Below are positions 2-64,000 of a stretch of 64,000 nucleotides of DNA, in pieces. The stretch spans positions 62,001 through 126,000 of the forward strand of contig MEDY01000030.1 of assembly GCA_001724265.1 (NCBI GenBank), read 5' to 3'. Source of the DNA: Rhizaria sp. SCN 62-66. Taxonomy: Eukaryota. The first letter of the stretch is position 1, and every line of letters begins with the position of its first letter. The notes beneath the pieces were generated by a model. The model did not search any database and had not been told where the DNA came from. It saw nothing but the letters and a program-made list of their open reading frames with translations. The translations under genes were made by a program, and so were the position numbers.

Positions 2-3000
2 ACGGGCGTTTTTGCATGTGCGCCTGAGTGGTCACGGCCAGTTGCGTCCGACTCAGCTCACGACTCGTACGACGGACCCAACGAGACCACAGGGGGATTG
101 CTGCAAGCGCTCCGGCTCTATTCGCTCTATGCCGGCGCTTACGCGCCCCACGCTCTGACCGCAGACGCCGCGGTTCCTGGCGGTGCTGCGCTTGCTGCGC
201 GCCACAATACGATCCTGGGACCGGTGCGCAAGCGTGACAAGGCGGCTAGTGACCCCGTTAGAACTGCTATGGCAGTCGCATCCGCCTACGGCCGCCGCCT
301 AGGGACGGTGCCTGATCATACCGCTGACGACGCAGCAGCGTCGGCTTCGGCGTCTGGGTCTGTGGTAGTGCCGATGTCGGTGGACGGCGAGGCGACACCT
401 CTCGGTCAGATGCAGGCGACTCCTGTTGCGACGATGACGGACGCGACATCGATGGGCGAGACGGAGGGCGACCGACAGGCAGCAATGGCGTATGCCAGTG
501 CTGCACACCAGCACAAGCGTTCTGTGTCAGCTGCATTCCAGCTCCGGGTGCGCCCCACGCTGCCCTCGTTCAGTGACGTGCTCACTGTCACTGTCATGGG
601 CCTCGAGCTCACCCAGGACGATGACAACAAGGATAACACCGGCAATGCGCAAATCCAAGGCCGCGGGGTGTGGTCCAGTCTGACGAACGACGCGTTCACG
701 CTTGCCGAGGCATCGCCCGACTTTGCCGCAGCTCTGCTGCTTTGCTGCCAGCTCGAGCGTGTCGCACGCGACGCCGCTGTAGCCCGGTGGGCTCAAGTTC
801 CCGTGCTGCTGCGCAACCTCCTCACGCCCGCTGTGCCCGCGACCTGTGCGGCGCTGCCGTCGGCGCTCACGCTCGTGCAAGGCTTGCTGCTATCGGTTTC
901 TCTCGTGGCGACGCCGGAGGATGTCCCGCGCGCGTTCGGTCCTCCATTGACGCGCGTGCACTCGCTGCCACTGTGCAGCTCGCCGGGACTGGCCGGCGCG
1001 GCGTGGTGTACGCTGCAGGCGCTGGCACAGGGCGCGCCGGCGCTGCAGCTGGCGTTGGCCCTGGCACTGTACGCCTTCTCACAGCGGCCGTGGGATCCGC
1101 TGGGTTTCCCTCGTTTTGACTGGCGCGGCACTGACACGCTGTCACTGGGACCGACCCGCTACGTGGGCCTTGTGAACGCTGGCTCGACGTGTTACATGAA
1201 CTCGCTGATGCAGCAACTCTTTATGACCCCTGCGTTCCGCGCCGCAGTGCTTGCTTGCCCCACAGGTGACATCGCCCTGGCCCAGGACGAGGATGGCAAT
1301 ACGTCTGCCCCGCCTGCTGCAGGTGAAGACGGTTGCCGTTCAACTCCCGCCGCAGCTGACGAAACGGAGTGCCTACTGTTCCAACTGCAGGCGTTGTTTG
1401 CGGCGCTGCAAGATGGAACACGGCCGCACCACGACCCTGTGTCGTTTGGTCGTGCGTACCGTGGCTTGGACCAACGGCCGATGAACGTCAACATCCAGAT
1501 GGACGCGTCCGAGTTCTTCTCGCTCATGTTTGACCAGCTTGAGGGCCGACTCAAGGCGCTCAACGCCGCGCGCGCGCCGCGGCCGCCTGTGCCGGACATG
1601 ATGCAGGCCGCGTTCCAGGGCGCGACCACAAACACCATCACGTGCTCGAACCCTGCTTGTGGGCACACGACACTGCGCGAAGACCCGTTCTTCATGCTGC
1701 CGCTTGAAGTCGTCGCTCACGCGTCCGTGCCGCAGGCACTGGACACGCTGTGCCGCGTAAGCATGGACCGCGCCGTGGTGTGCGACCGCTGCCGCGAGCA
1801 GCGGTCCACGCGGCAGCGCGTTACGCTGACGCGACTTCCCATGACGCTCGTCCTGCACTTGAAGCGCTTCCAGTTTAACGGGGAGATCATGTCCAAGGTC
1901 AACACCGCGTGCTCGTTCCCGCTTGTTTTGGATCTCGCACCCTACACGAATGTGAACCGTGAGTCTGACCAGCCGTGGCCCTGTGTCTACGTGCTGGCGG
2001 GCGTGCTCGTGCACTGGGGCCAGATCAACAGCGGACATTACTACTCGTACATCCGCGAGCGCAGCCACCCTAAGTGCCCCGCGGCTGCGCCGTTTGCGCA
2101 CGATCTCGCGGAACGCGCGGCCGCGGGTGGTGCGACGTTTGACTTTATGTCCGCGCTCGAGGCCCGCGTGCGAGCGGAGAAGTGGGTCGAGTTCAACGAC
2201 AAGAACGTCCAGAAGTGGGACATTGATGAGCTCAAGGCGGCCTGCTTTGGTGGTGGCAACGCCGCGCATAGTGCTTACATGCTCTTCTACGACCGCTACT
2301 TAGTCGGGTCCGGTGTGAGTGAAACCGCTCTCGTGGAGCCTGTTACTGCGGTTGTACAAGCGAGTGCGGTCTATCCGCGTGTGCTTTTTGACCGCATCTG
2401 GCAGCGCAACAACTCGGACGCCATCGTGCGTGCACAGTCGTCATCTTCCTGGGCCCAAGCTGTCGTCTCCCTAGCTCACAGTGCGATCGCATGCATTCCT
2501 AAGGCAAATGAACTGCGTATCACCACGTCCAAGGATTTATCCGCGCTCGCCGACGCCCTGACTCTGCCTGAGGCGCCACTGATTGCCGCTGCGAGTCTTG
2601 TCAGTCCTATGACGCTTGCGCGCGGCGCCGCGGCTGTCGACATGGCGAACGTACTCGGTGCCGAGCTCGCACGGTTCCCTGTGGGTGAGGTGACTACCAG
2701 CGCCGTTGCTGTGCTGATAGTGGCCACACTCGCGAAGCTGAGCCAAGCCACAAGAAGCGACTCAAACGAGCTGTGCCAGCTGGCGCAAGAAGAGGCGACA
2801 AACCTCAAGCACTGTGCGATGGCGATAATGTCTCGTGTGCCTGCCGCAGCTGCCGCAGTGCTTGCGGCTGTGGTTGAGAACTTTGAGGTTCACGGCAGTC
2901 CTATCGAAGAGACCGAGGAGGGCGAAGTTGCTCCGCGAGAGCGCAGTGGCAAGGCAGCGTATTGCTGGCTCACGAAGCTGTTCCAAGTTACTCAAATCAG

Positions 3001-6000
3001 TAGCGCCGCACTGTCATTTGCTGCATGCGTTGCACATGCGCTCTCTATCATTGAGCCGATGGAGCGCGTAACGCTCGCCAACTACAACGCCCTCCTGCGC
3101 GCTGAATCGATGTCTGACACGCGCTTCATTTTGCGCAAGAAAGTCGTCGATATTATCGCAGAACGCCTGCCGGGACCTCTCCCGCTGTCGCGGCGCGTGG
3201 TGTCTGCGGTGGTCTCAGTGCTGGGTGCTGAGACACCTCTCAAGAATGAGTGGGTCGGAGGCATGACGTCACTGTGGCATCTTCTGCAACTCTTCGGACG
3301 TCAGTCCCACCAGGCTATGGCGCTGCTGTTCGAGCTTGGCGCGCCCACCATCGCGCTGTCCTGGTCTACAGGCTTCACGTCGGAGCAGTTAATGCTGCCG
3401 ATGCCCGTGCTGATGCCGGCGCGCGGCGTTGGGAAGCCGCGTGCCGTGTACAAAATGGTGCGCCCTCAGTCCTCACGCAAAGCGGGCGACTCTTTGCAGC
3501 AGGTATTGCACTGTCTGCTCGCGGACGTTCTGCGCGCAGTGCTGATGCGGTTGCGACCCCATGCTGATACTGCGGCGTTGCCCGTGCTTGTGACGAACGC
3601 ACGCGAGCTTGTCCACATGTGGCCGCCCACGCTCGCGATCCTGCAGCCCGACTCCGAGCCCGTCGATGAGTCCAGTGCGGCCAACTCGTTGATGACGCAC
3701 GTCTTGGCGACCGCACGTGACCGCGCTGCGGTGACGCTGCTCATCACGGAGCTGTTTGCCACCAACGGCTCTGTGTGCGCCGTGCCCGCGCAGGTGCGTG
3801 TTGTGCTTGATATTGTTGAAAGCGCTGAATACGCGAAGATCGAGCAGGCGAACCGCGTCACATTGCTGCAACTCCTTCTTTTGCCGTACGGTGACGCGCC
3901 GCCGCTGAGCGACGACGCCCCTGGCGCAGCTGCATGGACAGAAACGGCGTGGGTGGGACTGGACCACTCGCGCGCACGCGCCGCGGTGCAGCGTGCAGTT
4001 GCGCTTACTGAGACTTGTCTGACGACGGATGATCTCGGTGGCGTGACTGCGAGTCGGATGGACCTGCTCCTCATGCTTTGCGCCGTTGCCGGTGCACCTG
4101 TGAAAGCGTATTCGACCGCGCTGTCGTCTTCGACTCCTCGTGAGTCGGTCTGTCTGGAGCGTGCGACGACAACCGCGGGGCGCGTGATGCGGGCTGCCGC
4201 GGCATCTCTCGCATCTCAGACGCTAACGTCACGCACACTCACCGCTGAGCTTGATATCGCTGTGGGATTCATGTACAGCCCGGACTTGTTTGACTCCATG
4301 GGAAGTCAGTCAGCGCCAGTGGATGCCAGTATTGAGCAGCAGCGTCTGGCACATGTCATTCGCATCGCTGCCAAGATCCCACCGGTGGATGCGCCGACGA
4401 ACAAGGACCAAGCTGAGGCTGGAGATGACCGTAATCTGCTTCTGTCCGCCCTTTTGTCGTCGGTGAATCCTCAACTCGCGACCCACGCAACGGCACTCGT
4501 GCTTCTGGCGACTGCAACAACGCCGGTTGCGAATGGTGTTGTCGCATGTCATGACAACAGTGGACTGTGGGCTGACATAATGGTCCAGACACCCTTTATC
4601 GCCGTGGGTGTGGCATTAGCGGCGGCAGACAAGGCGTATGAGTCCCGTCTAATCTCACCTGTTGGTGTTGATGCTGGCGCTGACGTGACAGCAAACCTCC
4701 TCAATGTCTTCGCCGTTGCGCGGAAGTCTGTGCTATGGTTTGCGACCTGTGGTGTGCTTGAAGCTCTCAGTTGGGTTCAAGCAGCAAGGCCTGTGCAGAC
4801 GCTGCATATGTGTAAGTTGATCATGACTGCCTTAGCAGGCGCACCTGCCTCCGTCGTTGACCGATTGCGCGTGCCGTGGTTGATGGGGATGACGACGGAG
4901 TGTATGTTTGCTTCTGCAACCACGGCTGATGCCGAAGTCGTGATGATGCCTGTTGCCGCTCTCCTTGCGTGGGCACTTCTTGGCACCAGTAACTTCCTCC
5001 GTCCCGTTTACAACGAGCACAAAAACTTCGCGCATATCACCACCTTTCTTGACACCCCTTTCGTCGTCTCGCTTGATGTCAGTGATCACGTCGGTGCAGA
5101 GATCGGGATGCAGACGTTTCAGTCAGGCTCCTCAATGTTTGTGCTAAGTTCGCTTGATAACGCCGTGGCAGCGCGCCTGGGAGCCGACGCTGCGCATCAC
5201 GCCGACTCCTCTGCAACCACAACTGCAGCGCTCACCGATAGCCAGATCGCTGCGCGCGTGGCGCATCTCCTGGCCGAGAATGATGTTTTGGCCAACGTCG
5301 TCAAGTCTGTGCGAGCTGCGCCGGATCCAAACGGGCCACTACCACTGCAACTGGACGTATACGCAGCGTCCGTCTCCGCTGTTCTCGCACTGGCTCTCCC
5401 GTACGACGACTCGACTTTGCAGCTGCTGCAAGCGTCGGACGCGGCCCAGGCGATGGGGGAGTCGGCGGACGTCGGAGGAGCACGTGGTTACCTCACAGAC
5501 GTGGTGCGCCATGAGACCATCTTGGCGGCGCAACGTTCAGAGGGTTACCGCCCGGTTCAAGCCTTGGGGAACTTTCTCCGTCTCAGTCTCTGTCCGCTCA
5601 TGCGATCGTTTGCGGCACTCGAGCCCTCACAGCGCACGTTCGTGTTCGCGATGCTCTGGCCTCGTGGCCTGATGCAGTGTCGCGATGTCATGGGGGAGTC
5701 CTCAATCGCAGTCACACTGCTCGCTTTGCTTGGCTCTGCTGATCACACCACACGTGTTGCCGCTCTCACGCCTGCTCTTTTCGGCAAGCCGCGCGACAGC
5801 ATCACGAAGGCCGTGCCGGTTTCTGAGTTCAGCGGCATTGTGGACATGATTTCGTACATTGCGGCGCGTTCCTCGCTTGAGCTGTCTGGTTTCCTAGATC
5901 TCTCGCGCCTTGGCTCCTTTGCCTCGACGCTCGTCAGTCAGATTGCATCAAGAAACTTCTGCATTGGGACGCATAATCCACAATGGCCATTTCTGACAAG

Positions 6001-9000
6001 CTTGTATCGTCGTGATGCTCCTATCTTGCTTGTGGCGGGTGTGGCGGCCGCGATTTCTGCCGTTGTTGCCGACATGAACACGTTTCCAGGTATTCTCAAC
6101 ATCAGCACCAACTTCAACAATGCACTTCCTCTCACTGTGGCCGTGGGCGAAAACAGTGAGGACGTCTTGGGGGAAGTGTTGAAGCCGACTGACACGATAT
6201 CTGAGCATTGTTCCCATGGAAACAAGCCTCTTCCACATCAGTTGACGTCGTCGCAAGCGTCACGTGCGAACAAACTTGCTGAAGATCTCACGCGTACAGA
6301 TGTACGCAAGATGGCTGAACCGATGCTTTGCATGCTGCTTCCTTTGCCGGCGCCGCTACCACATATTTCTCTTGTGGCCAGTCCGAATGCCAATTTGAAC
6401 TCGCAATATGCCGTCCAGTATGCGCTTAAGAATCATCCGTTTGTCGTCAACAGTCAAAATTTACAGGTCTTTCTTAACTTTGATTGCGCATTGGAAATGG
6501 CGGCGCAAATCGATGTCAAAAGCCCACCTGAGCTCTCTCGACCTACCTCCCTCTGCTATTCCTATGTACAGTCTCCAGCTCCTATCAATCTCCCACAGTG
6601 TAAAGAGGCCTATCATGCGCGGCTGTTAGGAGTTAATGCAGCATCCGTTACGAAGGCGCGGCTGTCTGTCACACATGCTTTCAAGGTAGCCCTTGACTCC
6701 GTGCGCGCAGGCGCTGTGCCGAAAGACAATGCGGATGGCAATATTCAAACCAAGGTCATGGCCGCTGCTGAGGAGTTGTTTGGTTCAGGCACTGACTCGT
6801 ATTTTGACGGTGACGACAAGTACTCACTTACTCAACATCTCGCGGCGCGCTCTGCCTGCAATGATGCGGCAGCGACCCTCATAATCGCGCCCGCATTTTC
6901 ACGATTGATGAACACCGTGCCCCTGGTGCTCGCGCCCTGGCTCTGCGGTGCTGTGCATGCGCAGCTCGAGGTTGGACTCGATATCTTTCTGTCTCTCAGT
7001 GAGCATGAGACTCAACAGTCGAGGGCGCCCTGGAACATGCTGCATCCTACGTTGATTAACCCATTGCTGCGCAGCGTGGTTCCTTCTGAGGCGTTGATTG
7101 CGCTGGCTGCCGACGCACTCGAACTTGTCGTGCGCAAACTTCCCGTCGGTGGTATGCTTAAGCTGTGGCCTGTGAAGCCTGTTTTCCCGTTCACTCCACT
7201 CGAGTCAGCTGCCGCGATGCCGGCTATCACGACTGATACTGCCGGAGCATCCGCCCAATCTGCTGTCAACGGCGGTGAGAGCTCATTTGCGACTGCCGCT
7301 CTGCGTGCCTACACCAACGTACGCACCGCGCCGCTGGCAGAGATCGCGTACGAGCTCACAGCGCAGCTGCTGCTATTCAGTATGGTTTCAAGCACACCGC
7401 CGCAGTTGTCGGCGATGGCGTCTAATGCCATGGCAAGTGTGCTCTCACGTTGGTCCGGCTCAAACTGCACAGCGGAAGAGACATGCAACAACCTGCTTCT
7501 GTTGCTTAAGTCAGAGCGCGTGCACGCGCGTGCCGCCGGACTCAGCAAGCTTGCTGCTGCGGGTGACGAGCTGGCCAAACGCTTCCGCACCGACTGGGCG
7601 CGCGTCTTGGCGGCGCCAACGCGCCTATCGGGCGCCCTTCATACCAGCGACGCGCCCACTGTGGCGGCGCTCATCGGACACGCATCGCAGTTCTTGACGC
7701 CCTTGTGGTCTGTCTGCCCGCTTGAACGCGTCCCTCTGCCGCTGCAGCTGCTGGGCTATGTGGCTCTGGGGAACCCCTTGCTGGCCGCAACATCATTCGT
7801 CAACGAGGTCGTCCAGCTGTGGCTGCCGCGCTTTGCTCTCGCCCTGCTGTCTGGCGACGTCACCCCGCTGGTTCCCTTCTCCCGCTCAATGGACGATGTG
7901 AACGAGGCCGACGTCGAGGCAGCCCCCCGGCGCTGCGCCCTGGTATTCAACGTGTTCTCAGACATTGTGAAGCAAGTCGAGTCCGTGCAAGTCGACAATC
8001 TCCCCAAGCCGCAGTGTCAAGAGAGCGCTGCTCCAGAGGAACTTGAGGCCGAAGCGCTCACGCTGGCTCAAAGCACCGAGTGGGCGCATGCGCTGGGCTC
8101 AGTCCGTATGCTGTCGGCCGTTCTAGCGCCCGCTGCGGCTCAGCAGGCTGAGGAGCCCAAGGTCTCGGTCAACCCGTGGCTGTTGTGCGTGCCGCGCTCG
8201 CAGGTCGAGCACGCCCTGGCTGTGGCCGCCGCCGTCGGGCTTGCGGCCGGTTCGGCGCTGAGTGATGTGCACGGTGACGGCCCCGCCTCGGTGGCCGCAC
8301 GCGTGCTGTTCAGTGCCGTGAGCGACGCTGCGCACCCGCACGCAGACCTGGAGCAGTGGGCGCTGGAGGCCGCCGGCGCGAGCGGAGAGCTCACGCGCGC
8401 GCTCGCCGCCACTAAGCGCGACTGGACTCACAGTGTGCAGAACGCCCGCGATCAGGAAGCTGCCGCCGCTCAATTGCAGTAGCAGCAACAGCACCAGCAG
8501 CAACAACAACAGCAACAGCGTCGGGGTGGCATCGACTTTCTGTTGTCTGCAAGTGAGCGTGTTGCAATGGGTGGCGGCGTGGATGTCCGCTCCCGGCGCG
8601 CGCGGCGATCAAACGCCGCAGCTCGTGACAACAGTGAAGACTACGTTGAAGTCGACGATGACGAAGAGGAGGCCGATGGCGATGATTACGAGGGCAAGAA
8701 CAACCGCCACATGGGTGGGTCCAAGCGCGCACGCAAGGCGTCGCAGGCGCAAGCGGCACTTAGAGATGTTGGTGTGGTGAGTTTGGGTCCCGACGGAGAC
8801 GGTGTGTATGCCGGCAACGAGGAGGAGAGTGAAGAGTACGACAAGGAGTATCGCGCTAGTCGTGGCAATGATGGCAATGATCGACGCCGGCGCCCGCAGC
8901 GTCACAAGCAGGCTCCACAGCAGCGTCGCGATGTTAACTCCCGCGGCTGTGGCGACTGTAACGATGGTGGAGAAACCGGCACTCAGCTTTCCATGAGCTC

Positions 9001-9892
9001 TGAAGACAATGTGGCGCGTTATGCACGCGAAGCTCGATACGACCGCGATGTTCTTGCTGAGCAGTTTGACCGGCTTGAAGCGCAGATGGTCGAACTTCTC
9101 GTTCGACGGGACGACGCCAATTCGATTAATAATGTCGGCTTAGCCCAGAAGCTGACTGCCGAAGTGAATGAGCTGGAAAAATTGCAGGTTGTCATTGCGA
9201 GTGCACAGAAATTCTGTCATGACTCAAAGCGCGGGCAGCGCGTCACGCGTCACAAGGTTGCCACAGATCCCGGATCTGGCTCTGATTTCGTATACTCTGG
9301 CACGGACTCCGTCTCTGGTTCCGAAAACAAAGACGGCGACAATGAGGACGACGACGAGGACGACGGCGAGGACGACGATGACCTCGTGATTGTTGCCAGC
9401 GACAGCACCGATGGCGTCGGCAGCTCCTCCGCCTCCGCATCCGCCTTCTCTGGCAAGACGAGCGCGCGCAGTGACTTGTTTGCTGTCCGCGACGGCTCCG
9501 AGCAGACCGGCGGCCGCGGGCGCCGCAGCAGCGCCAACAAAAGAACTGCTCCGGAGCCCCCTCTTGCGGGGCCCCGTGGACGCTGGGACGGTGGCAGTGT
9601 TGGCAGCGGCGGTAGCGATAACCGTGGCGGCCATGGCATGCGACGGCGGTCCGCGGCGTCGCAGAAGCATCGGCGGCGGCGCGGGGCGCGGCTGCAGGAC
9701 TTTGTGGGCTCGGATGACGACGATGAGCAGAGCGGCGACGCCAACGACGACGACTACGACGACGATTTCGAGGAAGTTTGGGATGATAGCAACAACGCCA
9801 ACAGCAACAACAGCGACAACGGCAACGATGTGGACGAACAGGAGGAAGAGGACCTGAAGAGGGCGCTTCAGCTGTCGCTTCAGGATAACTAA
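2..9892 (+). CDS. Large ubiquitin-specific protease (peptidase C19, USP9/24/34-like) with a C-terminal UIM; 5' end lies outside the window; one in-frame TAG at 8480-8482
   Basis: The frame is open from base 2. Cys box YVGLVNAGSTCYMNSLMQQLF (~1160-1222), QMDASEF, LVLHLKRF, His box GVLVHWGQINSGHYYSYIRER (~2000-2062) and WVEFND are present. ORFs 98..8482 and 8543..9892 are in the same frame and separated only by a TAG inside a poly-Q tract. The protein ends EEEEDLKRALQLSLQDN-TAA (UIM-like). Confidence 0.9.
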
Positions 9893-10191
9893 ACAGGTGA
9901 CTGAGCCGTCTCGCACGTGTCGCACTGCATCGCAGTGTTGATACTCGCTATCATGGTTCCTCATGGCGAGGAGTAGTATGTCGCAACGTGTGCACGCACG
10001 TGCTTGAACGTTTTGATGGATTAGCTAGACAAAATAACTATCAAGTATATTTGAGTGTGACGATGTGGGTGGGTGTTGCTGCGTCGTGTGGCTGAGTGCG
10101 GGTGACGAGCGTACACACGCTATCGTATCACTCGCAGTTCTCAGAGCCATCGTAGACCACACCACAAACCGCACCACACTGGTCAAGCCGC

Positions 10192-10843
10192 ATGCTTATC
10201 TTGCGGCGGACAAAAATCGTTATCTAAATGACTCATGTAAACCATAAATAGATTTATTTTTACTTAAGCCTCCAACTGTGTGCCTCCTTGTGAGATATTT
10301 GCAACCCATATTTGAATATAAACTGACCCCGGATTTCGTTTAAGTCAAGTTGCGCGCGGCGATGCTCGAAGACACATGGCGCGACTTACACGTCTCGCTG
10401 CTGTGAGAAGCAGACAATCAACAAACTGTAACGCATTAGCGCAAGCACCAGCGACGACACCAGCAGCAAGGTCGGCGCAGACTGAGCGGGCGTGCATTGG
10501 TTACAGCACAGCTGACTATGGATCGTGACCTACTTGAGGTAGTCCTCCACAGCCATGCATGTTGAGTCAAAAAAGAGTTGAGAAATACTTTTATTATTGC
10601 AGGTTCTATGTGTTGTTTAATTATCATTCTCTATTTCACGCGATACATCACCATCGAAATGTGCTTAACCGTTCAATCCTGTTTCTTTTTTCGGTCCTAC
10701 TAACACTCCAATGTGTTCATATCTTGACATAAATCGTCATCTAATTGATTCATGTAAACCATAAATAGATACATTTTCACTTACAACTGTGCGCCCCCTT
10801 GTGAGATATCTGTGATCCATATTTGACCATTTGAAGAGACCCC
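10192..10843. repeat. Degenerate direct repeat pair of ~130 bp (~10192-10330 and ~10711-10843) in the intergenic spacer
   Basis: aaatcgttatctaaatgactcatgtaaaccataaatagat...caactgtgtgcctccttgtgagatat...ccatatttga aligns with aaatcgtcatctaattgattcatgtaaaccataaatagat...caactgtgcgcccccttgtgagatat...ccatatttga. Confidence 0.85.
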
Positions 10844-25331: not shown

Positions 25332-28300
25332 ATGGAGCACATCGGCACCTACACGGGCGCCGAACTGCTTGTGCGCACGGACTTTGGTGAGGAGATTAAG
25401 GTCCCGCACGGCGCGGGCACGTATACTTACCCCGACGGTCACTTCTCGCTCGAGAGCGCCAACTGGTCCCACGGTCGTGTCACTGGCCACGGCACCCTGC
25501 GTCTCGGTCCCCAGCCCTCAACTTCCACCACCGACGCCACTGCATGCACGACTGACGCCACGGGCGCGCGGTATACCGGCGACTTTGTTCGCGGTCAGAT
25601 GACTGGCCAGGGCGAGCGCGTGTGGGCCGACGGCTCCGCCTACCGCGGCGGCTTCCTCCGTGGCGAGCCCCACGGTCCAGGCGTCTGGGCGGGCGCGCGC
25701 GCGGGCGAGCTCTACCAGGGCGAGTTTGCGCATGGACGCCGCCACGGCCCGCGCGCTGTGCTGCAGAGTGCGGATGGATCGGTCCACGCTGGCGGGTTCG
25801 CCGATCACCAGCGCTCGGGTTTCGGTGCTCACATGTACGGCCCAGCGCCGCCCGTCGCACTCAACACAATCACCCCTGCCGATCTGCAGAGCGCCGCGGG
25901 CAGTGATGTGGCGGCCAGCGGCGTGGGCCGTGCGTCGGCCGCGGGCGAGTGGGCTGCCAGCGCGCTGGTGGGCGCCGGAAACGCCGTCGCAGTGCCATTC
26001 ATCATCAGCAACAGCAGCGACAGCCACAGCCACGGTCACAACGGCAATGCCGCTGATGCCGGGAGCGCTGACGCTGACGCCACTGCTGCTGGAACTGAGT
26101 GGCAGGGCAGCGCGCTGCTCGTCGGCACTACCTGTAGCAACTCGCAGGCGCATGCGCAGTGGCAGCCGCAGGCGCAGTAGCAGGCGCTGATGCACAGCTC
26201 TGCCGCCATCTCCTCCCGCGCGCCCCGCGCTCCCGCCACTGCTGCTCCTGCAGTCTCCGGCGCCGTATACGCTCAGCGCGCCCTTGTCCCTGTCCCGGGG
26301 CCGGCCCCCGCGTCCAGCACTGCGAATGAGCCTGCTGCGGTGACCGCGGCGGTCACCGCCGCGGCGGCTGCAGCGGCCGCTGTGGCCGACGGTGCGTTCG
26401 TGCTCACGACGCACACGAGCGCGCACCGTGGCGCCGCGAACGAAACTGAGGGCGAAGGCGACGCTAGTTTGCGCGTGCTGCTGCCCCCCGCGCTGCCACC
26501 TGCGTCAGCGCTGGCGTCCGCAGTCTCAACCACCGGTCCAAACTCTGTTGCGTCTGTTTCTGCGGCGGTCTCAGCGCCTCCGCTGCCGCCGCTGTTAGAA
26601 CTCGTGGCCCGCCGTTACGCCACGCTGCACACACTTGCCACCGCGGCCGCCGTCGCTCCACCCGCCGCCGCGACCGCCGGCGCCGCCGCCGCAGCCGCAG
26701 CCTCAAACGCGTCCGCCACTGCGACTGCTGCTGGGACTGCTCTGCCCCGGCCGACGTCCCCCGCCGCCATCGCCGCCGCTGCGGCTGCCGCAGCACCGCC
26801 CGCGCTGCCCGCTTTCGCACCGCTGCCGCTGCTCCCGCTGCTGAGCGCGCGCGCGACGGCCGCCGCTCTGTGTGCGGCCGCGCACTTGCCGCATTTCGCG
26901 CGCGCCGTGGCCGCCGCTTCCGCCGTGGCCGCCGCAGAGACCGCCGCGGCTGAGGCAGCGGCCGCGAGCAGTAACGTGCGCGGGGGGCCCCGGACGCAGC
27001 GCGCGGCTCTGACAGAGGCTATGGAGCGCGCGCGCGGCGCGTGGCGCGGGTCTGACCCCCGCATCCGCCTGAGCGCGCACGCGTACGCCGCCGTTAACAC
27101 TGATGCTGAGGCGGAGGCCGTGGCGGACTGGGGCGGGCAAGCGCTCGCGCGTCCCGCACGCGTACACATCGCCGCTGCCGCTGCAGACGAGTCAAGCCTC
27201 GGTCTCGCGAGTCCCGAAGACGACTTCATCGGCGGCCGTGATGACGACAGTGGTAGTGCTGCGGTGCTGTCCCTACGGTCGCCCGCGCTTGAGGCCGCGC
27301 TGGCCCTCGCCGCGAGCGCACAGCAGCAGCAACTGCAGCTGCCGCGCGACGCCCCCGCGCGCTCACGCATCGCCGTTGCTGCCGCGCTCGCCGCGTCCCT
27401 CGCGCTGCTGCCCGCCGGCGCTTACGCTCCCTCCGCCGCCGCTGCTGCGGCCGCGCCGGCGCCGGCTCCGCTGCAGCGCCAGCCGTCCTCCGCTGCGATG
27501 GGCCTCTCGCACCCCGTGACGCCGGTGCGCGGCTCCGCAGCCGGCGGCGGCGGCTTCTTTGCCAGCCCCGTCGCCGCCACACCAGCAGCGAACGCAGCAC
27601 TCGGCGCCGCCGCCGCCGGTGGTGGTGGGAATGCGCTCCCGCTGCAAACGTCTGCGCGCGGTGGTGCGCGGCTCTCGACCACGGCGGCCGCTGCAGCCGC
27701 CGCCGCTGCGGCCGCCGCTGTGCCGCCGCCCGCGCTCACGCTGCCGCTGGGCGCCGAAGTGCTTTACGGCCGTTTGCTCCCGCTCTTTGTCGCAGTGCAG
27801 CGACCCGTGCGCAACGCTGCCGTCTCTGTACGGGGTCCGCCCGCGGTCGCAACGGCGGCGAGCACGGCGCAGGCGCTGTGTGCAGGCGAGAGCGGGCGTT
27901 TTACGGCTTTCTCGCTGCTGCCGCCGCTGCCCGCGCTTGTAGATGAAAAAGAGCGCCGCCGCCGTGCACCGCTGCTCGCCGCGCTTCTGGGCGCTTTCGC
28001 CTCGCCCGCCGTCTTCGCTGACCCTGTTCCCGCCTCGTCATTGTCCTCAGCTCCCGGCATTGGCGCTGGTGCCGTGGCCGGTGCGTCTGGCAGCGCTACA
28101 GCCACAGCCGCTGCCGCTGCCGCCGCTGCTGCCTCAGCTGCTGCTGCGGCGGCGGCGGCGCGGCCCGAGGCTAGCGAAGGGACTGTGACGACTGAGGCGC
28201 AACTCGCAGCGCTGACAGACCGGCGCGCGGCCGCGCTATGCTCTTGCCCGCGCCAGGCGGGCTCCGTGCTGCGCGCGCGCGTGCTAGCGCTGCTGTTCCA

Positions 28301-31300
28301 CGTCCACGCGCAGACGCGCGCGCTGGCCACGGCGCCGCTGCCGCCGGCTGAGATCGAGTCCTGGGGCCGGCTGCTTGCCCGCGCGCGCTTCATCGCAGCT
28401 GCCGACGCCGCGCGCGCCACCGCGCCCGCCGCGGCCGCCGCGCTTGCCACGGACAGTCACAACCGCAACGGCGCTGATAACGAGCGTGGTTCTGACGCCG
28501 TGACCGTGGCAGACGTGCTGTGGCTGTGCTCTGGCGCCGGCGCTGTTCACGCTGCGTCTGCGACCGTGAGCGGACTGACCGACGCGTCCGGTGCGTCGCT
28601 GGGCCCCGCCGCCGCGATGCCGCTGCGAAACGCCAACTCTGCACTTGCGCCCACGGACGTTGCGTGGCTGTTGCGGCACGGCTTTGCCGACGAAGCAGAG
28701 CCCGAGACGGAGCCTGAAGACGCGTCTGCCACCAGCGCCAGCAACAGCGTGAGCGCAAACGCAAGCGCAGCGCCGAGCCGCGGTTCGAGCCGTGCAGGCG
28801 CACGCGGCTCTGGCAAGGCGCTGGCCGGGCTTCTCGCGCCGCCTCCGCCTTTGCCCCCGTTGGCCGCCGCGCAGACCGCGTCCGCTGCCCACGCGCGCAC
28901 TCTGCGTCTCTCTGCTTTCACTGCAGCGGGCGTTGACGCAGGCTCGCGGCTGGCGGTGTCCTGCCCCGCTGGCCACTTGCCGTCGGAGCGCGCGCTGCTG
29001 GCCGCGACGTCCGTGCCCGCGGTGCCGTTGCTCGCGCTGCTACTGACTGACCCAGTAGTGCGCGCCGCACTCGGTGGCCGCGCGCCGCTCTCACTCGCCG
29101 CGGTCCAGGCCCTGCTGACCGCCGCGCTTGCGCACGAACGCGCGCTCCGCAGTGCGTGCACCGAAGTCAAGCCGCCTGTCGCCAACGCGCTCTCGCTGCT
29201 CTCCGCGCTGTGCTTTGAGGCAGGGCTGTTGCGCGTGTTTTCGCTCGCGTCCGACGCAGCTGCTGTTCCTGCCACTGGTGGCGTCACTGGCAGTGGCGCG
29301 GCGACAGGTAGCTCGAGTTCAGGCACCAGCTCAGGCGTGGAGAAGGCTGCGGCTGCCGGTGGCGCGGCGGCTGCAGCGAGCGCGGCCGCTCTCGCCCCGC
29401 TTAGCCCCGATGCCGAGCCGGCGCGCTACCCGCTGTCGCCCGCATTTGCCGTCCCCGCGCCCGCTGACGCCGCTGCCGGTGCGATCACGATGCAGCCCAC
29501 GCCCGCAGCCGCAGTGCTACTTGCCAACGCACTCGCTGCTGGGTCTGCCTCCGCGCTCTCGTGGCTGCTGCCTGTCTTTGCCCCCGGTGGCGCGAACGGC
29601 AACACTGCGAGCACTCCGGCGAGCGCCGCGACTGCGCCTGGGGCTTCCCCGCGGCGCGCGGCGGGCGCGGCAAACACGTCCGCTGCGGCCGGCGAGCACG
29701 CTGCATTGGTCGCCGCCGCCGCCGCATCTGCCCGCGCCGCTGCGCTGACCGCTGCCCTGCGCGGCGCGTACCCTGCGGCTCTCGCGCCGCTGTCTCCGTT
29801 GCACGCTGTGCTGGCCGCGCGCCTCCCGGGGCTCGCGCCCGCCCCCGCTGCGCCTATGCCACAGCCCGCGACCGGCCCCGCCGCTGCGCGCGCCGCCCGT
29901 GCCGCCGCTGCCGCGACGCCCTCCAACGGCGGCAACAGCGGCGGCGCTGCTGCTGCGCCCGTTGCGAGCGCGCTCAGCGGCGGCAACGGTGACCGTGTCT
30001 CCGCCGCCGCTGCCGCCGCCGCAGCGACCGCGGCCGCGGCGCTAGTGGCGCCCGCGCTACCGTGGGGCTGCTTGCGAGGCCGTGAAGTCTCCGCTGCAGT
30101 GCTTACGAACCGTGCGCTGCTGCTGGATCTCGAGTGCGCGGCCACACCGTTGCACGCAGCTGCGGTGCTCTGTGCGCGCTACGCTGTGCCCGCGCCGGAG
30201 GACACTGCTGAGGCTGCTGCGACGATCGGCGCCGGCGCCGGTGCCGGTGCGCAGCCGCTTGCAAGTGGTGCGCATGGGCACGGGCACGGGCACGGGCATG
30301 CTCCTCCTGCGTCACCCTCGATGTCTTCCGCTTCTTCATCGTCATCGTCATCGTCGTCCTCTTCGTCAGCGACTTCTGCTGCGTCTGCGGCCGCGGCTGT
30401 GACAGCACTTGCCTCGCAATGCCCGCTATCCGCGCGCGCACAGGCGTGGGTGCGCGCCTCAGCCTCTGCGCTCCTGGCCGCGTCTGAGGCCGACACGGAG
30501 GCTCTGCTGCCCGCGCGCGGCGCCGGTGCGCTGGCGCTGGTGCCGCTGCCGGCGTCACCGTTCTTCCCAACGCCTGCGCCCGCTACCACGCCCGCTGCCG
30601 CCGCCGCCGCCGCAGCCACCGCGGCGGCCGCCGCCGCCAACGTCAGCGCTGCGGCCGCACTCGACACTGTGGCCGCCGTCGGCTCACTCGCGCTGGCCCC
30701 CACGAACGCACTGGGCAGCGCCGCGCAGGAAGCACTGGCCGCGGCGACAGTGCTGGCCGATCTCCGCGTCGGCGCTGCGCTGCACTTGCCGCCCGCTGCG
30801 GTGACCTTGGGCAGCGCTGGCGGCGCGGCGGAGTCGATGCTCGCGCTTTACCGCGAGCCGCTGTTCCCGGCAGCCGCGCTGCCGCAGCCTGCGCCCGCGA
30901 GCGTCGCGCCCGTTCCCGGCGACAGCAAGGCGACGCCGCTGGCCGCCACAGCAGTGCGTGGGCGGTTGCAACGCTCCGACTCTGGCGCGAGCGCTTCTTC
31001 TGCTCCCAGTGCCGCGACTGCTGGCTTGTCCTTGGCTGGCGGCGTTGCTGCGGCTGCGCAGACGGCTCCCGGCTCCGCTGCCGCCGCGGCAGCCGCCGCC
31101 GCGGTGTCCGCTCGCGGCGACCTCGGCGGGCGTCTGGCGCTGGCCGAGGTTGCCCGCGCTACCGCGGCCGCTGGCGACTGTCACGAATGCACCGGCGGCT
31201 GCTGTCGGCTGTCTGCGCAGACGACGAGCCCGCTCGCGCTTGCATTCCCGCTGCTGCTGCCCGCGCTGCCCGCACCCGCGCGCGCGGCGGCGTTGCTGGC

Positions 31301-32817
31301 CGCTGCGGCGCCCGACGCGGCGCAGTCCGAGGCCCTCGCCAAGGTCACGCGCGCTGGGGCCGTGCGCGCGCGCAGAGGCTCTGTGGCCGCGTTTCCGCCC
31401 ATGCCGCCGCTCACGCCCTCCGCTTCTGCTCCCGGTGGCGCCGTGGGCGCTGCGGAGGGCAAGGGCAAGAGCGCGGTGTCGACGGCGAACGCGGCTGCCG
31501 CGGCGGCTGCTGCGACTGCTGCCGCCGCGCACGCCGCCGCAGCCGCAGGCGCTGCGGCAGTGGGTGGAGGCGTGGTTCAGATCGTGCCCGCGCCTCCCAG
31601 CACCAGCCCTGTTACGATCACCGCAACCGCAACCGCGACTGTGAGCGTCACAGTGACTGTGAGCTCATCAACAGCCAAGACCACTAAGAGCAGTAGTGAG
31701 GCGGAGAGTGAGCCGACGCTGGCGCTGCTGCGGTGGGCTGTGGCGACAGACCCGGCGCTGGCGCGGTGGGTGGCTGCGGCACGGCTCAGTCTGCTGCCGG
31801 CGCCTGCTTGGCCGCTCTGGGCTACGCTCGCTACGGCGGTCACGCCCACGCGCCACGGAATCGCGAGTACGTCGATCTTTCTCATAACATGATGAAAATA
31901 ACTGTTTTTAAATCAAATTGCCTCTAAATGAACCGCCATCGTGCTTATATCTTATGTTTCTTTTGTTTCGTCGTATTTTCTGTTTGATAGCCCCATTCAC
32001 GTTCACGGAAGACGCGTCTGTGCTGCTGCCGCCGCTGCCCCGCAGTGTCGCCCAACACCTCGCGCGAGTGCTTCCCGTAGCCGCCCACTCTCTCCCGCTG
32101 CTGCGCCCGCGCCCGGCGCCCGTGCCACTCGCCCCCGCGCCGCTGCTGCTTGCCACCGTGCCCGCCGCCGCCTCCGTCTCTGTTGCCGCGCCGGCCGCGG
32201 TCTCCGGCGCGCCCGGCGCCTCGTTCTCCTCGAATGGCTCTGGAGCCACGAGTACTGGCACTGGTGCAGGGCCGTCACCCACCGCTGGCGGTGCCTCGGC
32301 AGCGTCAGGTGCTCTGGGATCGCCGGTGCGCGCCGTGGGCTCTGTGGCGCAGCAGCAGCAGGCCGCCGTTGCCGCCGCAGCTGCGGCCGCAGCAGCCTCC
32401 GTGGCCGCCGCAGCGCAGACGACTGGGGCGGGTGGTGTTGGTGACGCAGCGCAAGCGCGTGCGGCTGCGCTGAGAGAGCTTCCTGCTGGCGCTTTTGGGC
32501 TACTGCTCATTGATGACGTAACCCCAGCGTCCCACAGCCACTCCGCAACCACCCCCGATAATGGCAGTAACCACGGTCGCAGCAAGGGGCAAGCGCCGCC
32601 GTTGTGCGAAGTCAAGCGTCGCGCCGCTGCCGTCGGCCGCGGTGGCCACGGGTCTGACGAGCTTGAGTGGCCCCGTGTAACGGTCGTGGAGCGCGCGCAT
32701 GGCGCTGCGGTGGCACTGGTGCCGTCGCCGCTTGCCCGCGTGGAGCCGCCTGCGCAGATACGCAGGGGAGCGCCGCGCGCGCCGATGCCTGCGCCGCCCA
32801 AGGCCGTCGCCGAGTAA
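25332..32817 (+). CDS. MORN-repeat protein with a long Ala-rich C-terminal region; exons 25332-31866 and 31991-32817; in-frame TAG at 26178-26180
   Basis: MORN repeats: PHGAGTYTYPDG, YTGDFVRGQMTGQGERVWADGSAYRGGFLRGEPHGPG, YQGEFAHGRRHG, HAGGFADHQRSGFG. ORFs 25308..26180 and 26190..31892 share a frame across CAG-TAG-CAG. A phase-1 GTACGT...ATAG intron (31867-31990) joins in frame to the 31918..32817 ORF. The gene ends in TAA. Confidence 0.72.
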
Positions 32818-41191: not shown

Positions 41192-41878
41192 TCATGCGTA
41201 TTCAGCCTGTGCGGCCGCGACTTCCTCCATCTCCTTGCGCGCGCGCAGAACAAGCTCCGCGCGGTAATACGCGGCCAGCGCGCGCTCGCGGTGCTCCGCG
41301 GCGGCCGCGGCGGGGAGGCGGCCGACGACGCGGGCGGGATTGCCGGCTAAGATGGAGAACGGGGGAGCGACGAAGCCATCGGGTACGCGTGCGTGGGGCA
41401 TTACGCGGACGCAGGAGGCCAAAACGGCGCGGGAACCGACGACCGCGTCGTGCATGACGTGGCAGAGCGGGCCGAGCGACAGGGCCTCGATGACGCAGCC
41501 TTCTTCAACTATGCAGAGGTCGCCGACAGTCAACGGTGCGTGGACCACAGTTCCATCCGGTGCAGTCTATGAACACGGTCGCAAAACGGTATTCGACTCG
41601 ATGAGACAGCCTTCGCCGATGGAGACGGGCGCGAGGTCACCAATAATCTGCGCGTTGGGCGCAATGACGGTATGGCCGCTAGTGCAGGTGACGGAGCCGG
41701 TGATGAGGGACGGGACGCCGATGTGGTTCAGCGACTTGGTGCTCATGTAGCTAGCGCTCGCTTCACCCGCAGAGAGAAGGACCTGGGAGAAGGAAGAGTC
41801 ACGGGAAGCGAGCGGGCCGTACACCGCCAGCGGGGGCGGGGCAAACTCGAACGCGCGCGGTGCGTCGCAGCTGTCCAT
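41192..41878 (-). CDS. DCTN5: Dynactin subunit 5 (p25), left-handed beta-helix; in-frame TAG at 41569-41567
   Basis: GHTVIAPNAQIIGDLAPVSIGEGCLIESNTVLRPCS[TAG]TAPDGTVVHAPLTVGDLCIVEEGCVIEALSLG...VVGSRAVL...VAPPFSILAGNPA is colinear with p25 (GKTI...IIRGDLANVRVG...VIRPP...PLHIGDHVFIEEDCVV...VVPPFTVFSGCPG, recalled). The gene ends in TGA. Confidence 0.85.
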
Positions 41879-45889: not shown

Positions 45890-45922
<33 letters not shown>

Positions 45923-62700: not shown

Positions 62701-64000
62701 CATACCGCCGCGACTGGCGCTGCTGAGACGGCCACGGAGTTTACGCAGACTCACGCGTACGCCGACGCAGCGCGTGCGCCCAACGCAAACGCTGGACTCC
62801 CACTTTAGCGGCCCTACAACTTGCCCAGCCACCAGCGTTCACAGTCGCTTTCTCACGGCAACACGAGCAATGCGGCAGCCGCCGCTGCGGCGGCCCAGGC
62901 CGCGGCCGCTGCACTGCGCTCACAGTCTCAGCTCCCGTCGGGGTTACACTCGCAACTACACTCGATCGCGCCCTCGCCGGCCGTTTCCGCCTCTGCCGCC
63001 GTCGCGCCCACCGTCGCCGCGACGGCTGCGGTGACTGAGGCGCCGTCGGGCACTGCGGCGCTGGACGCGTTTCTGAACATGAACATGAACATGAGCCAGA
63101 ACGTGAGCGCGAACATGAGCGCAGCTGCAGGGAAAGCGAACACAAACGCTGCTGGGGGCGACGGAGCTGTTCTGGCCCCGCTCGTGGCAGCTGCACTGAG
63201 TCAGCTGCAGACGCAGCAGTCGTTGTTGCTGCACGTGTTGGAGCGACAGGACCGCATTCTACTGCCGAATACTGCCGCTAGCGTGAATAACACTGCGCAC
63301 AATACGGTGGTTGAGGCAGAAGTCAAGCCGCATCTGCTTCAGGTTAAGACACCAGTAAAGGAACGCACACCTGCACCCTCGCCCAAAGCACAGTCTTCAT
63401 CTGTTCACGCATCCCCTGCTCCTGTCGCGGTGCCTGCTGTCGCTGACGCACGCAGTGCAAAGCTGTCGCTGCCGCTTCCGCTCACTCCGGCATCTGCATA
63501 CGCCTTTGCACACGGCCATGACAGCAAGCGTAGCTTCAACTTTGCACCTGCACCTGCTATTGCTGAATCGCCCGCTGCGACTGCTGCTCCGGCCGCGCTC
63601 GCAGTGCCCTCGGCTCCCGTCTCCACAGCGCCCTCCCCTAGGGCCTCTGCTTCCCCAGCTGCTGCAGGCGCGGCGACACAGCCAAACGCTGCGGGGGGCC
63701 GGCCGCATCACCCTGCGTTCCGTTCCCCTTTGTCGCCTTCAGCGGCTGAGCGCGAGCGCCAGCGCGACCGCGAGGAGCAGCTGAGGCTGCAACAGCTGCA
63801 GCAGCTGCAGCTGCAGCGTGCCGGCGACAGCGAGGAACAGAGCTCGCGGCTGCAGAGTGACCGCGAGTCTGAGCTCGGCGGCTTGACAAGCGACGACGAA
63901 CGCGGCCAAACTTTCCTTGCGCTCGTCGACGATGACGTTGCTGACTCCAGTGACGACGACGCTTACTCGCGTTTTGCTCGCAAGAATGAGCCGCGCAATG
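59761..64000 (+). CDS. Coiled-coil, low-complexity protein of unknown function; in-frame TAG at 62806-62808; runs off the window end
   Basis: ATG at 59761 marks the AT-to-GC transition. There is a long E/R/A heptad-like region at ~60840-61945. After the TAG the same frame stays open for the remaining ~1190 nt with the same Ala/Pro/Gln-rich codon style. Confidence 0.75.

What the first reader, a model, noticed from the sequence alone, without database searches (positions are those of the whole stretch)
8462..8520. TAG embedded in a poly-glutamine tract links the USP body to a C-terminal UIM
The frame reads CAA TTG CAG TAG CAG CAA CAG CAC CAG CAG CAA CAA CAA CAG CAA CAG, or QLQ*QQQHQQQQQQQQ. 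This is the most direct indication that TAG encodes Gln. Reading through adds ~470 aa ending in EEEEDLKRALQLSLQD, a ubiquitin-interacting-motif-like sequence that fits a deubiquitinase. There is no AT-rich spacer between the two ORFs, unlike every real gene boundary in this window.
Basis: partly seen in the sequence, partly recalled or inferred. Interest (0 to 1): 0.8.

Follow-up and report, generated by a model that had tools for sequence, protein, structure and literature searches.

The report
Stop codon TAG read as glutamine
An uncultured, GC-rich microbial eukaryote from wastewater reactors appears to read the stop codon TAG as an amino acid, most likely glutamine, so a giant ubiquitin-removing enzyme runs on through a TAG inside a glutamine tract to a ubiquitin-binding motif at its tail.

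Summary
TAG 8480-8482 sits in frame inside a CAG/CAA run, and the frame stays open for 469 more codons to a Pfam-significant UIM and TAA 9890. An independent DNA run has the identical sequence.

- All 4 in-frame TAGs in the window's genes are followed by 124 to 1903 open, coding-like codons. The frame closes within 0-48 codons after the 10 TAA/TGA gene ends.
- One TAG lies inside the conserved dynactin-5 domain, with homology on both sides and no gap.
- In two other samples the UIM's CAG codon (9869) reads TAG.
- No gene ends in TAG.

Glutamine is favoured by context and by this polymorphism, but it is not proven. The single conserved column shows K 55, Q 23, R 22 of 148.

No tRNA(CUA), eRF1 or whole genome could be examined. 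The code type (UAG = Gln, UAA/UGA = stop) is already known from Iotanema spirale and two ciliates. This looks like a new, unnamed lineage with very low TAG usage (0.22 per 1000 codons).

The parts
2..8479 (+). USP deubiquitinase body. The ORF is open at the window's 5' end, so the true N-terminus lies outside the window.
   Evidence: The codon-usage score is that of a gene (this ORF was in the training set).
1163..2290 (+). USP/UCH catalytic domain (residues 388-763 of the partial protein). Its closest solved relatives are USP9X and USP34.
   Evidence: PF00443, 164.8 bits, profile 1-254 of 254. USP9X E 2.4e-32, USP34 E 1.9e-28. The Cys box (GSTCYMNS) and His box (SGHYYSY) are visible in the translation printed; the motif names are recalled.
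8471..8518 (+). Glutamine tract encoded by CAA/CAG, in phase on both sides of the TAG.
8480..8482 (+). In-frame TAG, read as a sense codon (most likely Gln).
   Evidence: It is identical in the independent DNA contig of X3, which covers 7500-10678 with 0 differences.
8483..9889 (+). C-terminal extension of 469 codons. It is mostly acidic, basic and Ser/Gly-rich low-complexity sequence, with one coiled-coil-like stretch.
   Evidence: translation; the best codon-usage score is in the same frame, +0.208, against -0.31 to -1.29 in the other sense frames; 469 open codons.
9839..9889 (+). Ubiquitin-interacting motif (QEEEDLKRALQLSLQDN) at the extreme C-terminus.
   Evidence: PF02809, 23.1 bits (cut-off 21), whole profile 1-17.
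9869..9871 (+). CAG (Gln of the UIM) in the window; it reads TAG in contigs of runs X4 and X5.
   Evidence: table 3: 9869 C>T, in X4 at depth 6.73 and 249 letters from the contig end, in X5 at depth 3.7 and 28 from the end. Searches give the codon assignment.
9890..9892 (+). TAA, the true terminator of the USP-UIM gene.
   Evidence: the frame closes again after 3 codons and the GC content falls.
41192..41878 (-). Dynactin subunit 5 gene with an in-frame TAG at 41567-41569 (residue 103 of P0002). It ends in TGA.
   Evidence: PF21711, 88.3 bits; solved DCTN5 aligns to residues 41-194, E 1.1e-24, with no gap at the TAG; database gene calls are split exactly at the TAG (P0004 ends at residue 102, P0003 starts at residue 110).
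25332..31892 (+). MORN-repeat gene with an in-frame TAG at 26178-26180 (context QPQAQ[TAG]QALM). It ends in TGA.
   Evidence: A polyA-RNA contig of X10 covers 25898-26282 across the TAG.
59761..63999 (+). Ala-rich coiled-coil gene with an in-frame TAG at 62806-62808 (context LPL[TAG]RPY). It is open at the window's end.

Best explanation
The window comes from the nuclear genome of an uncultured, GC-rich, intron-poor eukaryote from wastewater and bioreactor samples. In this organism UAG is no longer a stop codon but a rarely used sense codon, most likely a third glutamine codon. UAA and UGA still terminate. The TAG at 8480 is therefore one residue of a polyglutamine linker. ORFs 2..8482 and 8567..9892 are one gene for a USP9X/USP34-like deubiquitinase of at least 3296 residues. 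Its layout is: catalytic USP domain, about 2000 residues without a further Pfam match, a polyQ tract, a roughly 450-residue disordered acidic and basic tail, and a terminal ubiquitin-interacting motif that would hold ubiquitin or ubiquitin chains near the enzyme. Shown here: the in-frame TAGs, coding continuity behind them, a TAG inside a conserved domain, CAG/TAG interchange between strains, and the absence of TAG terminators. Inferred from other UAG=Gln lineages (Panek 2017): decoding by a tRNA-Gln with anticodon CUA, and an eRF1 that no longer recognises UAG. The UIM's role in ubiquitin binding is also inferred, from the family.
For: 1; after the 4 in-frame TAGs (8480, 26178, 62806, 41569 on the minus strand) the frame stays open for 469, 1903, 397 (cut by the window end) and 124 codons. 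After the 10 TAA/TGA gene ends it stays open for 0-48.
2; the stretches behind the TAGs have gene-like codon usage in the same frame (+0.208, +0.303, +0.216 bits per codon; known genes score +0.23 to +0.28). In two intergenic stretches 11 of 12 frames are negative and one is 0.00.
3; the DCTN5 domain spans its TAG. Pfam gives 88.3 bits, and solved DCTN5 aligns to residues 41-194 at E 1.1e-24 with no gap at residue 103.
4; public gene calls break at that TAG, while the closest relative (P0005, 54% identity) is one uninterrupted protein.
5; 9869 C>T turns the UIM's CAG into TAG in contigs of X4 and X5, which come from two studies.
6; a DNA contig of X3 from another study matches 7500-10678 with 0 differences, so the TAG at 8480 is real. 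A polyA-RNA contig of X10 (25898-26282) bridges the TAG at 26178.
7; 0 of 10 gene ends use TAG (4 TAA, 6 TGA; 2-3 of these ends are uncertain because of introns).
8; no intron-like sequence lies within 200 bases of any TAG (lowest 30-base GC 0.43-0.50, no GTRNGT). The two recognised introns have GC 0.29-0.32.
9. For glutamine specifically: the TAG at 8480 sits inside a CAR run, the TAG at 26178 is flanked by CAG on both sides, and the polymorphic partner codon is CAG. At the DCTN5 column Gln is the second commonest residue (23 of 148) and Leu is not among the top eight.
Against: - The sample is small: 4 fixed TAGs in 18,025 codons, 1 polymorphic site and 10 terminators, all from one 64-kb window.
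- No tRNA gene is in the window and no genome is held. The tRNA(CUA) and eRF1 are therefore unseen.
- The only TAG in a conserved column aligns mostly to Lys (K 55, Q 23, R 22 of 148). The closest relative has a 3-residue gap nearby.
- The CAG/TAG polymorphism need not be synonymous: 10 of the 18 coding variants shown are non-synonymous when this one is counted among them.
- RNA continuity across 8480 was not shown. The only other-sample contig listed there apart from X3's is from X5, labelled 'probably DNA'.
- The X10 RNA contig over 26178 carries one difference whose position was not listed, and 23 of the 63 variant rows were not shown.
- Two TAGs have the Gln-stop-Gln context that promotes readthrough even in standard-code yeast (PMC13192750).
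- No orthologue of the tail was found, although those searches were swamped by low-complexity words.
Confidence: 0.8

Rival explanations
1. The organism keeps the standard code and has leaky or context-driven readthrough. UAG is still a stop, but near-cognate tRNA-Gln reads it at a useful rate, especially between Gln codons. Nonsense changes in Q-rich linkers would then be tolerated, and the USP-UIM fusion would be a minor isoform.
For: The TAGs at 8480 and 26178 are both CAG-TAG-CAG. A yeast preprint (PMC13192750; abstract and section 5 read) reports that a Q-stop-Q context gives about 5-7% full-length protein with Gln inserted. TAG usage here is very low, 0.7% of Gln-type codons.
Against: Three of the 5 TAG sites are not flanked by Gln codons: DCTN5 is TCA-TAG-ACT, 62806 is CTT-TAG-CGG and the 9869 variant is CTT-TAG-CTG. 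A TAG in the core of DCTN5 would leave only a few percent of an essential dynactin subunit. None of the 10 gene ends uses TAG, although the sample is small.
Confidence: 0.08
2. UAG is a sense codon but stands for another amino acid. Candidates are Leu (as in the rhizarian exLh and some phyllopharyngean ciliates), Lys or Glu.
For: UAG = Leu lineages are known (abstracts of PMC5304391 and PMC11687900). The DCTN5 column is mostly Lys (55 of 148). A Leu codon (TTG) sits two codons before the TAG at 8480.
Against: The TAG at 8480 interrupts a run in which 11 of the next 12 codons are CAR. The strain partner of the TAG at 9869 is CAG. Leu is not among the eight commonest residues at the DCTN5 column, whereas Gln is second.
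Confidence: 0.07
3. TAG is an ordinary stop. On this reading 2..8482 and 8567..9892 are separate genes, or the TAG-bearing genes are nonsense alleles or young pseudogenes picked up by the assembler.
For: An ATG exists at 8567. Gene callers split the genes this way.
Against: This would require 4 of about 12 genes to carry nonsense changes that are all TAG, with no TAA, TGA or frameshift. It would also require three downstream 'genes' that all lie in the upstream frame, 84, 9 and 270 bases away, in a genome whose spacers are 0.5-4 kb. A CAR run would have to continue in phase into a '3' UTR'. DCTN5 would be cut in mid-domain.
Confidence: 0.04
4. The TAG is an assembly or sequencing artefact, or it is corrected in the mRNA by U-to-C editing.
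For: The one differing letter of the X10 RNA contig over 26178 was not located.
Against: The X3 DNA contig from another study is identical across 8480. The same T at 9869 appears in two further studies. No difference at 8480-8482 is listed in any of the 4 runs, although 23 rows were not shown. U-to-C editing of nuclear mRNA is not known to me in protists (recalled).
Confidence: 0.01

Closest known systems
Nuclear code of Iotanema spirale (Fornicata): UAG = Gln, UAA and UGA = stop (Panek et al. 2017, PMC5304391; abstract and section 7 read)
   Same: Only UAG appears reassigned. UAA and UGA end genes and no gene ends in UAG. Glutamine is the likely meaning.
   Different: In I. spirale UAG is frequent (204 in-frame UAG in 126 genes) and UAA is the main terminator (104 of 119). 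Here there are 4 UAG in 18,025 codons, and the 10 gene ends are TAA 4 and TGA 6. The genome here is GC-rich (0.54-0.74). The ThrRS has no close named relative, so kinship with Iotanema is neither shown nor excluded. The eRF1 change reported for I. spirale (passage of PMC9161772) could not be looked for.
Phyllopharyngean ciliates Hartmannula sinica and Trochilia petrani: UAG = Gln (McGowan et al. 2024, PMC11687900; abstract read)
   Same: UAG alone is reassigned to Gln, and UAA is kept as a stop.
   Different: This window has long GC-rich genes, kilobase spacers and giant low-complexity proteins. That is unlike ciliate macronuclear DNA (recalled, not tested). Suppressor tRNAs were found in some of those ciliate genomes, but none could be sought here.
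Gln-context stop-codon readthrough in standard-code yeast (Leslie et al. 2026 preprint, PMC13192750; abstract and section 5 read)
   Same: A stop between Gln codons inside a Q-rich tract is decoded as Gln.
   Different: In yeast only about 5-7% is read through, at accidental nonsense mutations. Here TAG also occurs outside Gln contexts and inside a conserved domain, and it never ends a gene.
Giant USP deubiquitinases USP9X and USP34, and DUBs that carry UIMs (USP25, USP28, USP37, ataxin-3, OTUD5; this list is recalled)
   Same: The catalytic domain is closest to USP9X and USP34. It is a very long protein. A UIM is appended to a DUB.
   Different: To my recollection, a single UIM at the extreme C-terminus of a USP9X/34-type enzyme, behind a polyQ and acidic disordered tail, is not a described architecture. 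No orthologue of the tail was found (both searches were weak).

Membership tests
UAG-to-Gln-only variant nuclear genetic code (Iotanema type; 'table 15' pattern) | In-frame UAG inside coding sequence, including conserved domains, with homology continuing on both sides | tested here: met
   The DCTN5 TAG is at residue 103, within a Pfam match covering residues 168-319 of the longer frame and a PDB alignment of residues 41-194 with no gap. Three further TAGs have coding-like continuation.
UAG-to-Gln-only variant nuclear genetic code (Iotanema type; 'table 15' pattern) | UAG is never used as a genuine terminator | tested here: met
   0 of 10 gene ends in the window use TAG. The sample is small and 2-3 ends are uncertain because of introns.
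UAG-to-Gln-only variant nuclear genetic code (Iotanema type; 'table 15' pattern) | UAA and UGA remain terminators | tested here: met
   All 10 gene ends are TAA (4) or TGA (6), and the frame closes again within 0-48 codons. Eight of the 9 ends measured are followed by lower-GC DNA (0.37-0.53); the exception is TGA 31890 at 0.61. Terminal domains are complete before them: the UIM, the SET domain, the ThrRS anticodon-binding domain and DCTN5.
UAG-to-Gln-only variant nuclear genetic code (Iotanema type; 'table 15' pattern) | UAG positions correspond to conserved Gln in homologues | tested here: inconclusive
   Only one alignable column is available: K 55, Q 23, R 22, H 6, Y 6 of 148. Indirect support for Gln comes from the polyQ context and the CAG/TAG strain polymorphism.
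UAG-to-Gln-only variant nuclear genetic code (Iotanema type; 'table 15' pattern) | A tRNA-Gln with anticodon CUA and an eRF1 altered in stop-codon recognition | not testable with these tools
   There are no tRNA genes in the window and no genome is held.
USP (peptidase C19) deubiquitinase | Full USP catalytic domain with Cys and His boxes | tested here: met
   PF00443, 164.8 bits, profile 1-254 of 254. The best solved relatives are USP9X and USP34. The GSTCYMNS and SGHYYSY motifs are visible in the translation; the motif definitions are recalled.
Ubiquitin-interacting motif (UIM, PF02809) | Acidic run followed by hydrophobic-x-x-Ala-x-x-x-Ser-x-x-acidic, scoring above the Pfam cut-off | tested here: met
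   23.1 bits against a cut-off of 21 in the 441-aa ORF, and 20.0 bits (just under) in the 3296-aa fusion. EEEDLKRALQLSLQD fits the pattern (the consensus is recalled). Ubiquitin binding itself was not tested.
Programmed or context-driven stop-codon readthrough in a standard-code organism | The same stop codon also ends ordinary genes, and readthrough sites share a stimulating context | tested here: not met
   None of the 10 gene ends is TAG. Only 2 of the 5 TAG sites are Gln-flanked.

The most novel reading that the evidence does not exclude
An unnamed eukaryotic lineage, possibly flagellated (a weak hint from one CFA20-domain gene) and recurring in wastewater, bioreactor and fuel-cell samples, reassigned UAG to glutamine independently of Iotanema and the ciliates. 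It is caught at a very early stage: UAG has already gone from gene ends but makes up only about 0.7% of Gln codons, and CAG/TAG is still segregating between strains. That would be a natural snapshot of how a stop codon is captured. It would also be a cellular candidate for the kind of host implied by the TAG = Gln giant viruses noted earlier in this scan.
Probability: 0.45. Interest if true: 0.8.

Novelty: new member of a known kind. Interest (0 to 1): 0.66.

Why it matters
Nuclear genetic-code changes outside ciliates are rare. Codes that separate UAG from UAA are rarer still: the papers read here describe Iotanema, one rhizarian and a few phyllopharyngean ciliates. A further lineage, apparently unrelated and GC-rich, with UAG barely used yet already absent from gene ends, bears on how reassignment starts, by codon disappearance or through an ambiguous intermediate.

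There is also a practical consequence. Standard gene callers split this organism's genes at TAG. DCTN5 is stored in public protein sets as two fragments. The USP loses its ubiquitin-binding tail, and the MORN gene and one other gene are halved. Eukaryotic bins from wastewater metagenomes therefore need code-aware annotation.

Tried and rejected
- Whole genome: none is held. Genome-wide codon statistics, tRNA(CUA) and eRF1 could therefore not be examined.
- tRNA and RNA-family scans of the window: 0 hits.
- Homologue searches for the 441-aa ORF and for residues 2300-3296 of the fusion: nothing at E <= 0.001. Even the window's own protein did not appear. The candidate lists were evidently filled by low-complexity words, so this is no evidence that the tail is unique.
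- Metagenome scan with ThrRS to fetch contigs of relatives: the 80 loci returned were at most 54% identical. None encodes the clade relatives P0156-P0164.
- My early guess of a trypanosomatid with a dynein heavy chain was wrong. The 5096-aa ORF has no PDB dynein match and is an MLL-like SET/PHD/bromodomain protein.
- Taxonomy: cluster look-up, ThrRS hits and a ThrRS tree place the window only in a clade of 9 unnamed metagenomic sequences (SH-aLRT 99). No named lineage could be assigned.
- An intron as the explanation for the TAGs was rejected.
- X10 depth as proof of transcription was not used. The depths are per contig and are inflated by Ala-codon repeats, for example 3493 at 15468-16131.
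- RNA contigs across 8480: none is listed for the polyA library X10. This is absence of cover, not evidence.
- Notes of this scan on the same genome or on look-alike sequence: none.
Full report
**What is in the sequence.** At 8462-8520 the frame of the long 5'-open ORF 2..8482 reads CAA TTG CAG TAG CAG CAA CAG CAC CAG CAG CAA CAA CAA CAG CAA CAG. The TAG at 8480-8482 therefore sits inside a glutamine tract that continues in phase on both sides. Tandem Repeats Finder reports a period-3 array at 8476-8519. Runs of five CAR codons were found 9 times in the window and 0 times in 100 shuffles. With TAG read through, the frame runs 469 more codons to TAA 9890-9892. The tail ends ...QEEEDLKRALQLSLQDN. 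Pfam calls this a UIM at 23.1 bits (cut-off 21) in the 441-aa ORF, and at 20.0 bits in the 3296-aa fusion. Upstream there is a complete USP catalytic domain (PF00443, 164.8 bits), closest among solved structures to USP9X and USP34. A contig of an independent DNA run from another study covers 7500-10678 without a single difference, so the TAG is not an assembly error. The only slips are a one-residue misquote of the tail and an overstated 'every boundary is AT-rich': one of the 9 measured gene ends is followed by GC 0.61.

**What the window is.** It is GC-rich (0.54-0.74 per 2 kb) and carries very long, mostly uninterrupted ORFs separated by spacers of lower GC.
- The genes include PP2C, threonyl-tRNA synthetase, a CFA20-domain gene, a DinB-family gene, a MORN-repeat gene, condensin Cnd1, dynactin subunit 5, a 5096-aa MLL-like PHD/bromodomain/FYRN/SET protein and a short-chain dehydrogenase.
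- A few short AT-rich introns exist. One is 21958-21995 (GTACGT...CGTAG). Another is an intron before the last Cnd1 exon, ending at 38614.
- The same DNA occurs in bioreactor, wastewater, fuel-cell and activated-sludge runs of 8 studies.
- No whole genome is held.
- The ThrRS has one 71%-identical metagenomic relative. It falls in a clade of 9 unnamed environmental sequences (SH-aLRT 99), apart from the sampled oomycetes, plant, Dictyostelium, animals and fungi. I could not name the lineage.

**Is TAG a sense codon here?** I looked beyond the given coordinates, and five lines of evidence agree.
1. Open frames. The window's genes hold four in-frame TAGs: 8480, 26178 (MORN gene), 62806 (last gene) and 41569 on the minus strand (DCTN5). 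After them the frame stays open for 469, 1903, 397 (cut by the window end) and 124 codons. After the 10 TAA/TGA gene ends it closes within 0-48 codons.
2. Codon usage. The stretches behind the TAGs score as coding in that same frame (+0.21 to +0.30 bits per codon, like known genes). Intergenic DNA is negative in 11 of 12 frames and 0.00 in one.
3. A conserved domain. The DCTN5 TAG lies inside the conserved left-handed beta-helix. Pfam PF21711 scores 88.3 bits across it. Solved mammalian DCTN5 aligns to residues 41-194 at E 1.1e-24 with no gap at residue 103. Public protein sets store the gene as two fragments, one ending at residue 102 and one starting at residue 110. The nearest relative (54% identity) is a single protein.
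4. Terminators. None of the 10 gene ends uses TAG.
5. Strain polymorphism. Among 40 listed differences, 9869 C>T changes the CAG of ...RALQLSLQDN* to TAG. It is seen in contigs of X4 (depth 6.73) and X5 (depth 3.7), which come from two studies. Under the standard code this variant would cut off the UIM's conserved serine.

None of the TAGs lies near intron-like sequence. A contig from a polyA RNA-seq library (X10) spans 25898-26282 across the TAG at 26178. This is weak support, for two reasons: DNA can be present in such libraries, and the position of that contig's single difference was not listed.

**Which amino acid?** Three observations favour glutamine. The TAG at 8480 is followed by 11 CAR codons out of 12. 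The TAG at 26178 is flanked by CAG on both sides. The polymorphic partner at 9869 is CAG. The one alignable conserved column (DCTN5) is less clear: K 55, Q 23, R 22, H 6, Y 6, D 5, A 4, I 4 of 148 homologues. Gln is plausible there, Leu is not among the top eight, and Lys cannot be excluded from that column alone. The polymorphism does not prove synonymy either, because 10 of the 18 coding variants shown are non-synonymous when it is counted among them. I put Gln at roughly four in five, given that TAG is sense.

**Mechanism.** Shown: the USP body, polyQ tract, disordered tail and UIM are one reading frame, and this organism treats TAG as sense. Inferred from the known UAG = Gln lineages: a tRNA-Gln(CUA) and an eRF1 that has lost UAG recognition. 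In I. spirale a change in the eRF1 GTS motif is reported (passage of PMC9161772). Inferred from the UIM family: the terminal motif binds ubiquitin and helps the enzyme engage ubiquitinated substrates or chains.

**Rivals.**
- Gln-context readthrough. This is the most serious rival. A 2026 yeast preprint (PMC13192750; abstract and section 5 read) shows that stops between Gln codons are read as Gln at about 5-7%. Only 2 of the 5 TAG sites here have that context, however. One TAG sits in an essential domain, and TAG never ends a gene.
- Ordinary stops or nonsense alleles. This would need 4 of about 12 genes hit by TAG only, with downstream 'genes' always in the same frame 9-270 bases away.
- Artefact. 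This is excluded by the independent DNA run.

**Comparison with what is known.** A code with UAG = Gln and UAA/UGA = stop was first shown for Iotanema spirale (PMC5304391; abstract and section 7 read). It was later shown for the ciliates Hartmannula sinica and Trochilia petrani (PMC11687900; abstract read). UAG = Leu occurs in a rhizarian and in other ciliates. The present case fits that code on the testable features (in-frame UAG, no UAG terminators, UAA/UGA terminators). It is inconclusive on the amino acid and untestable on tRNA and eRF1. It differs in three ways:
- very low UAG usage, 4 in 18,025 codons or 0.7% of CAG+CAA+TAG, against 204 in 126 genes in I. spirale;
- high GC;
- balanced TAA/TGA termination.

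My three literature searches turned up no report of such a code in a wastewater eukaryote, or in any non-ciliate other than Iotanema. Supplements were not available and the library is incomplete. Earlier notes of this scan describe giant viruses that read TAG as Gln and have no known host. That is a lead only and was not tested here.

**Verdict.** It is a new member of a known but very rare kind of genetic code, in an unidentified lineage. As a by-product, several genes that standard annotation splits are corrected. The evidence base is one 64-kb window, so the decisive tests need the rest of the genome: genome-wide UAG columns, tRNA(CUA), eRF1, and raw RNA reads or peptides across the TAGs.

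Noticed in passing
42377-57667 (+): A single 5096-codon ORF encodes an MLL/KMT2-like protein with several PHD fingers, a bromodomain, FYRN and a C-terminal SET domain. I first mistook it for a dynein heavy chain.
   Followed up: partly
21958-21995 (+) and about 38470-38614 (+): Short AT-rich introns (GC 0.29-0.32). One has GTACGT at its 5' end and both end in YAG. The Cnd1 ORF runs by chance into its intron to a false TGA at 38535. The real last exon (38615-39430) ends in TAA. The exact 5' splice site of the Cnd1 intron was not determined.
   Followed up: partly
23825-24838 (-): A DinB-family protein (PF05163, 53.6 bits). To my recollection this family is mainly bacterial. It sits in a eukaryotic gene neighbourhood, so it is a possible horizontal acquisition.
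   Followed up: no
18512-21421 (-): The threonyl-tRNA synthetase has a long N-terminal extension (969 aa) and no TGS domain. It groups with 8 unnamed metagenomic sequences, apart from the named eukaryotes sampled.
   Followed up: partly
9893-11524 and 17771-18511: Strain differences between samples are concentrated in the spacers: 22 of the 40 listed variants are intergenic. X4 also has insertions of 13 and 30 bases at 10034 and 10889.
   Followed up: no
15371-16131 and other Ala-codon repeats (GCN runs): Run depths spike, up to 3493 in X10, with hundreds of false joints and loose ends. Low-complexity GC-rich repeats attract contigs of other organisms.
   Followed up: no
9224-9964 (-): A 246-codon antisense ORF lies opposite the USP tail, with a mirrored GC pattern and a codon score of +0.126. 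It is most likely a by-product of the acidic repeat on the plus strand.
   Followed up: no
21948-22766 (+): A CFA20-domain gene (43.6 bits; only profile positions 58-144 matched). This hints that the organism has cilia or flagella. Upstream exons were not worked out.
   Followed up: no
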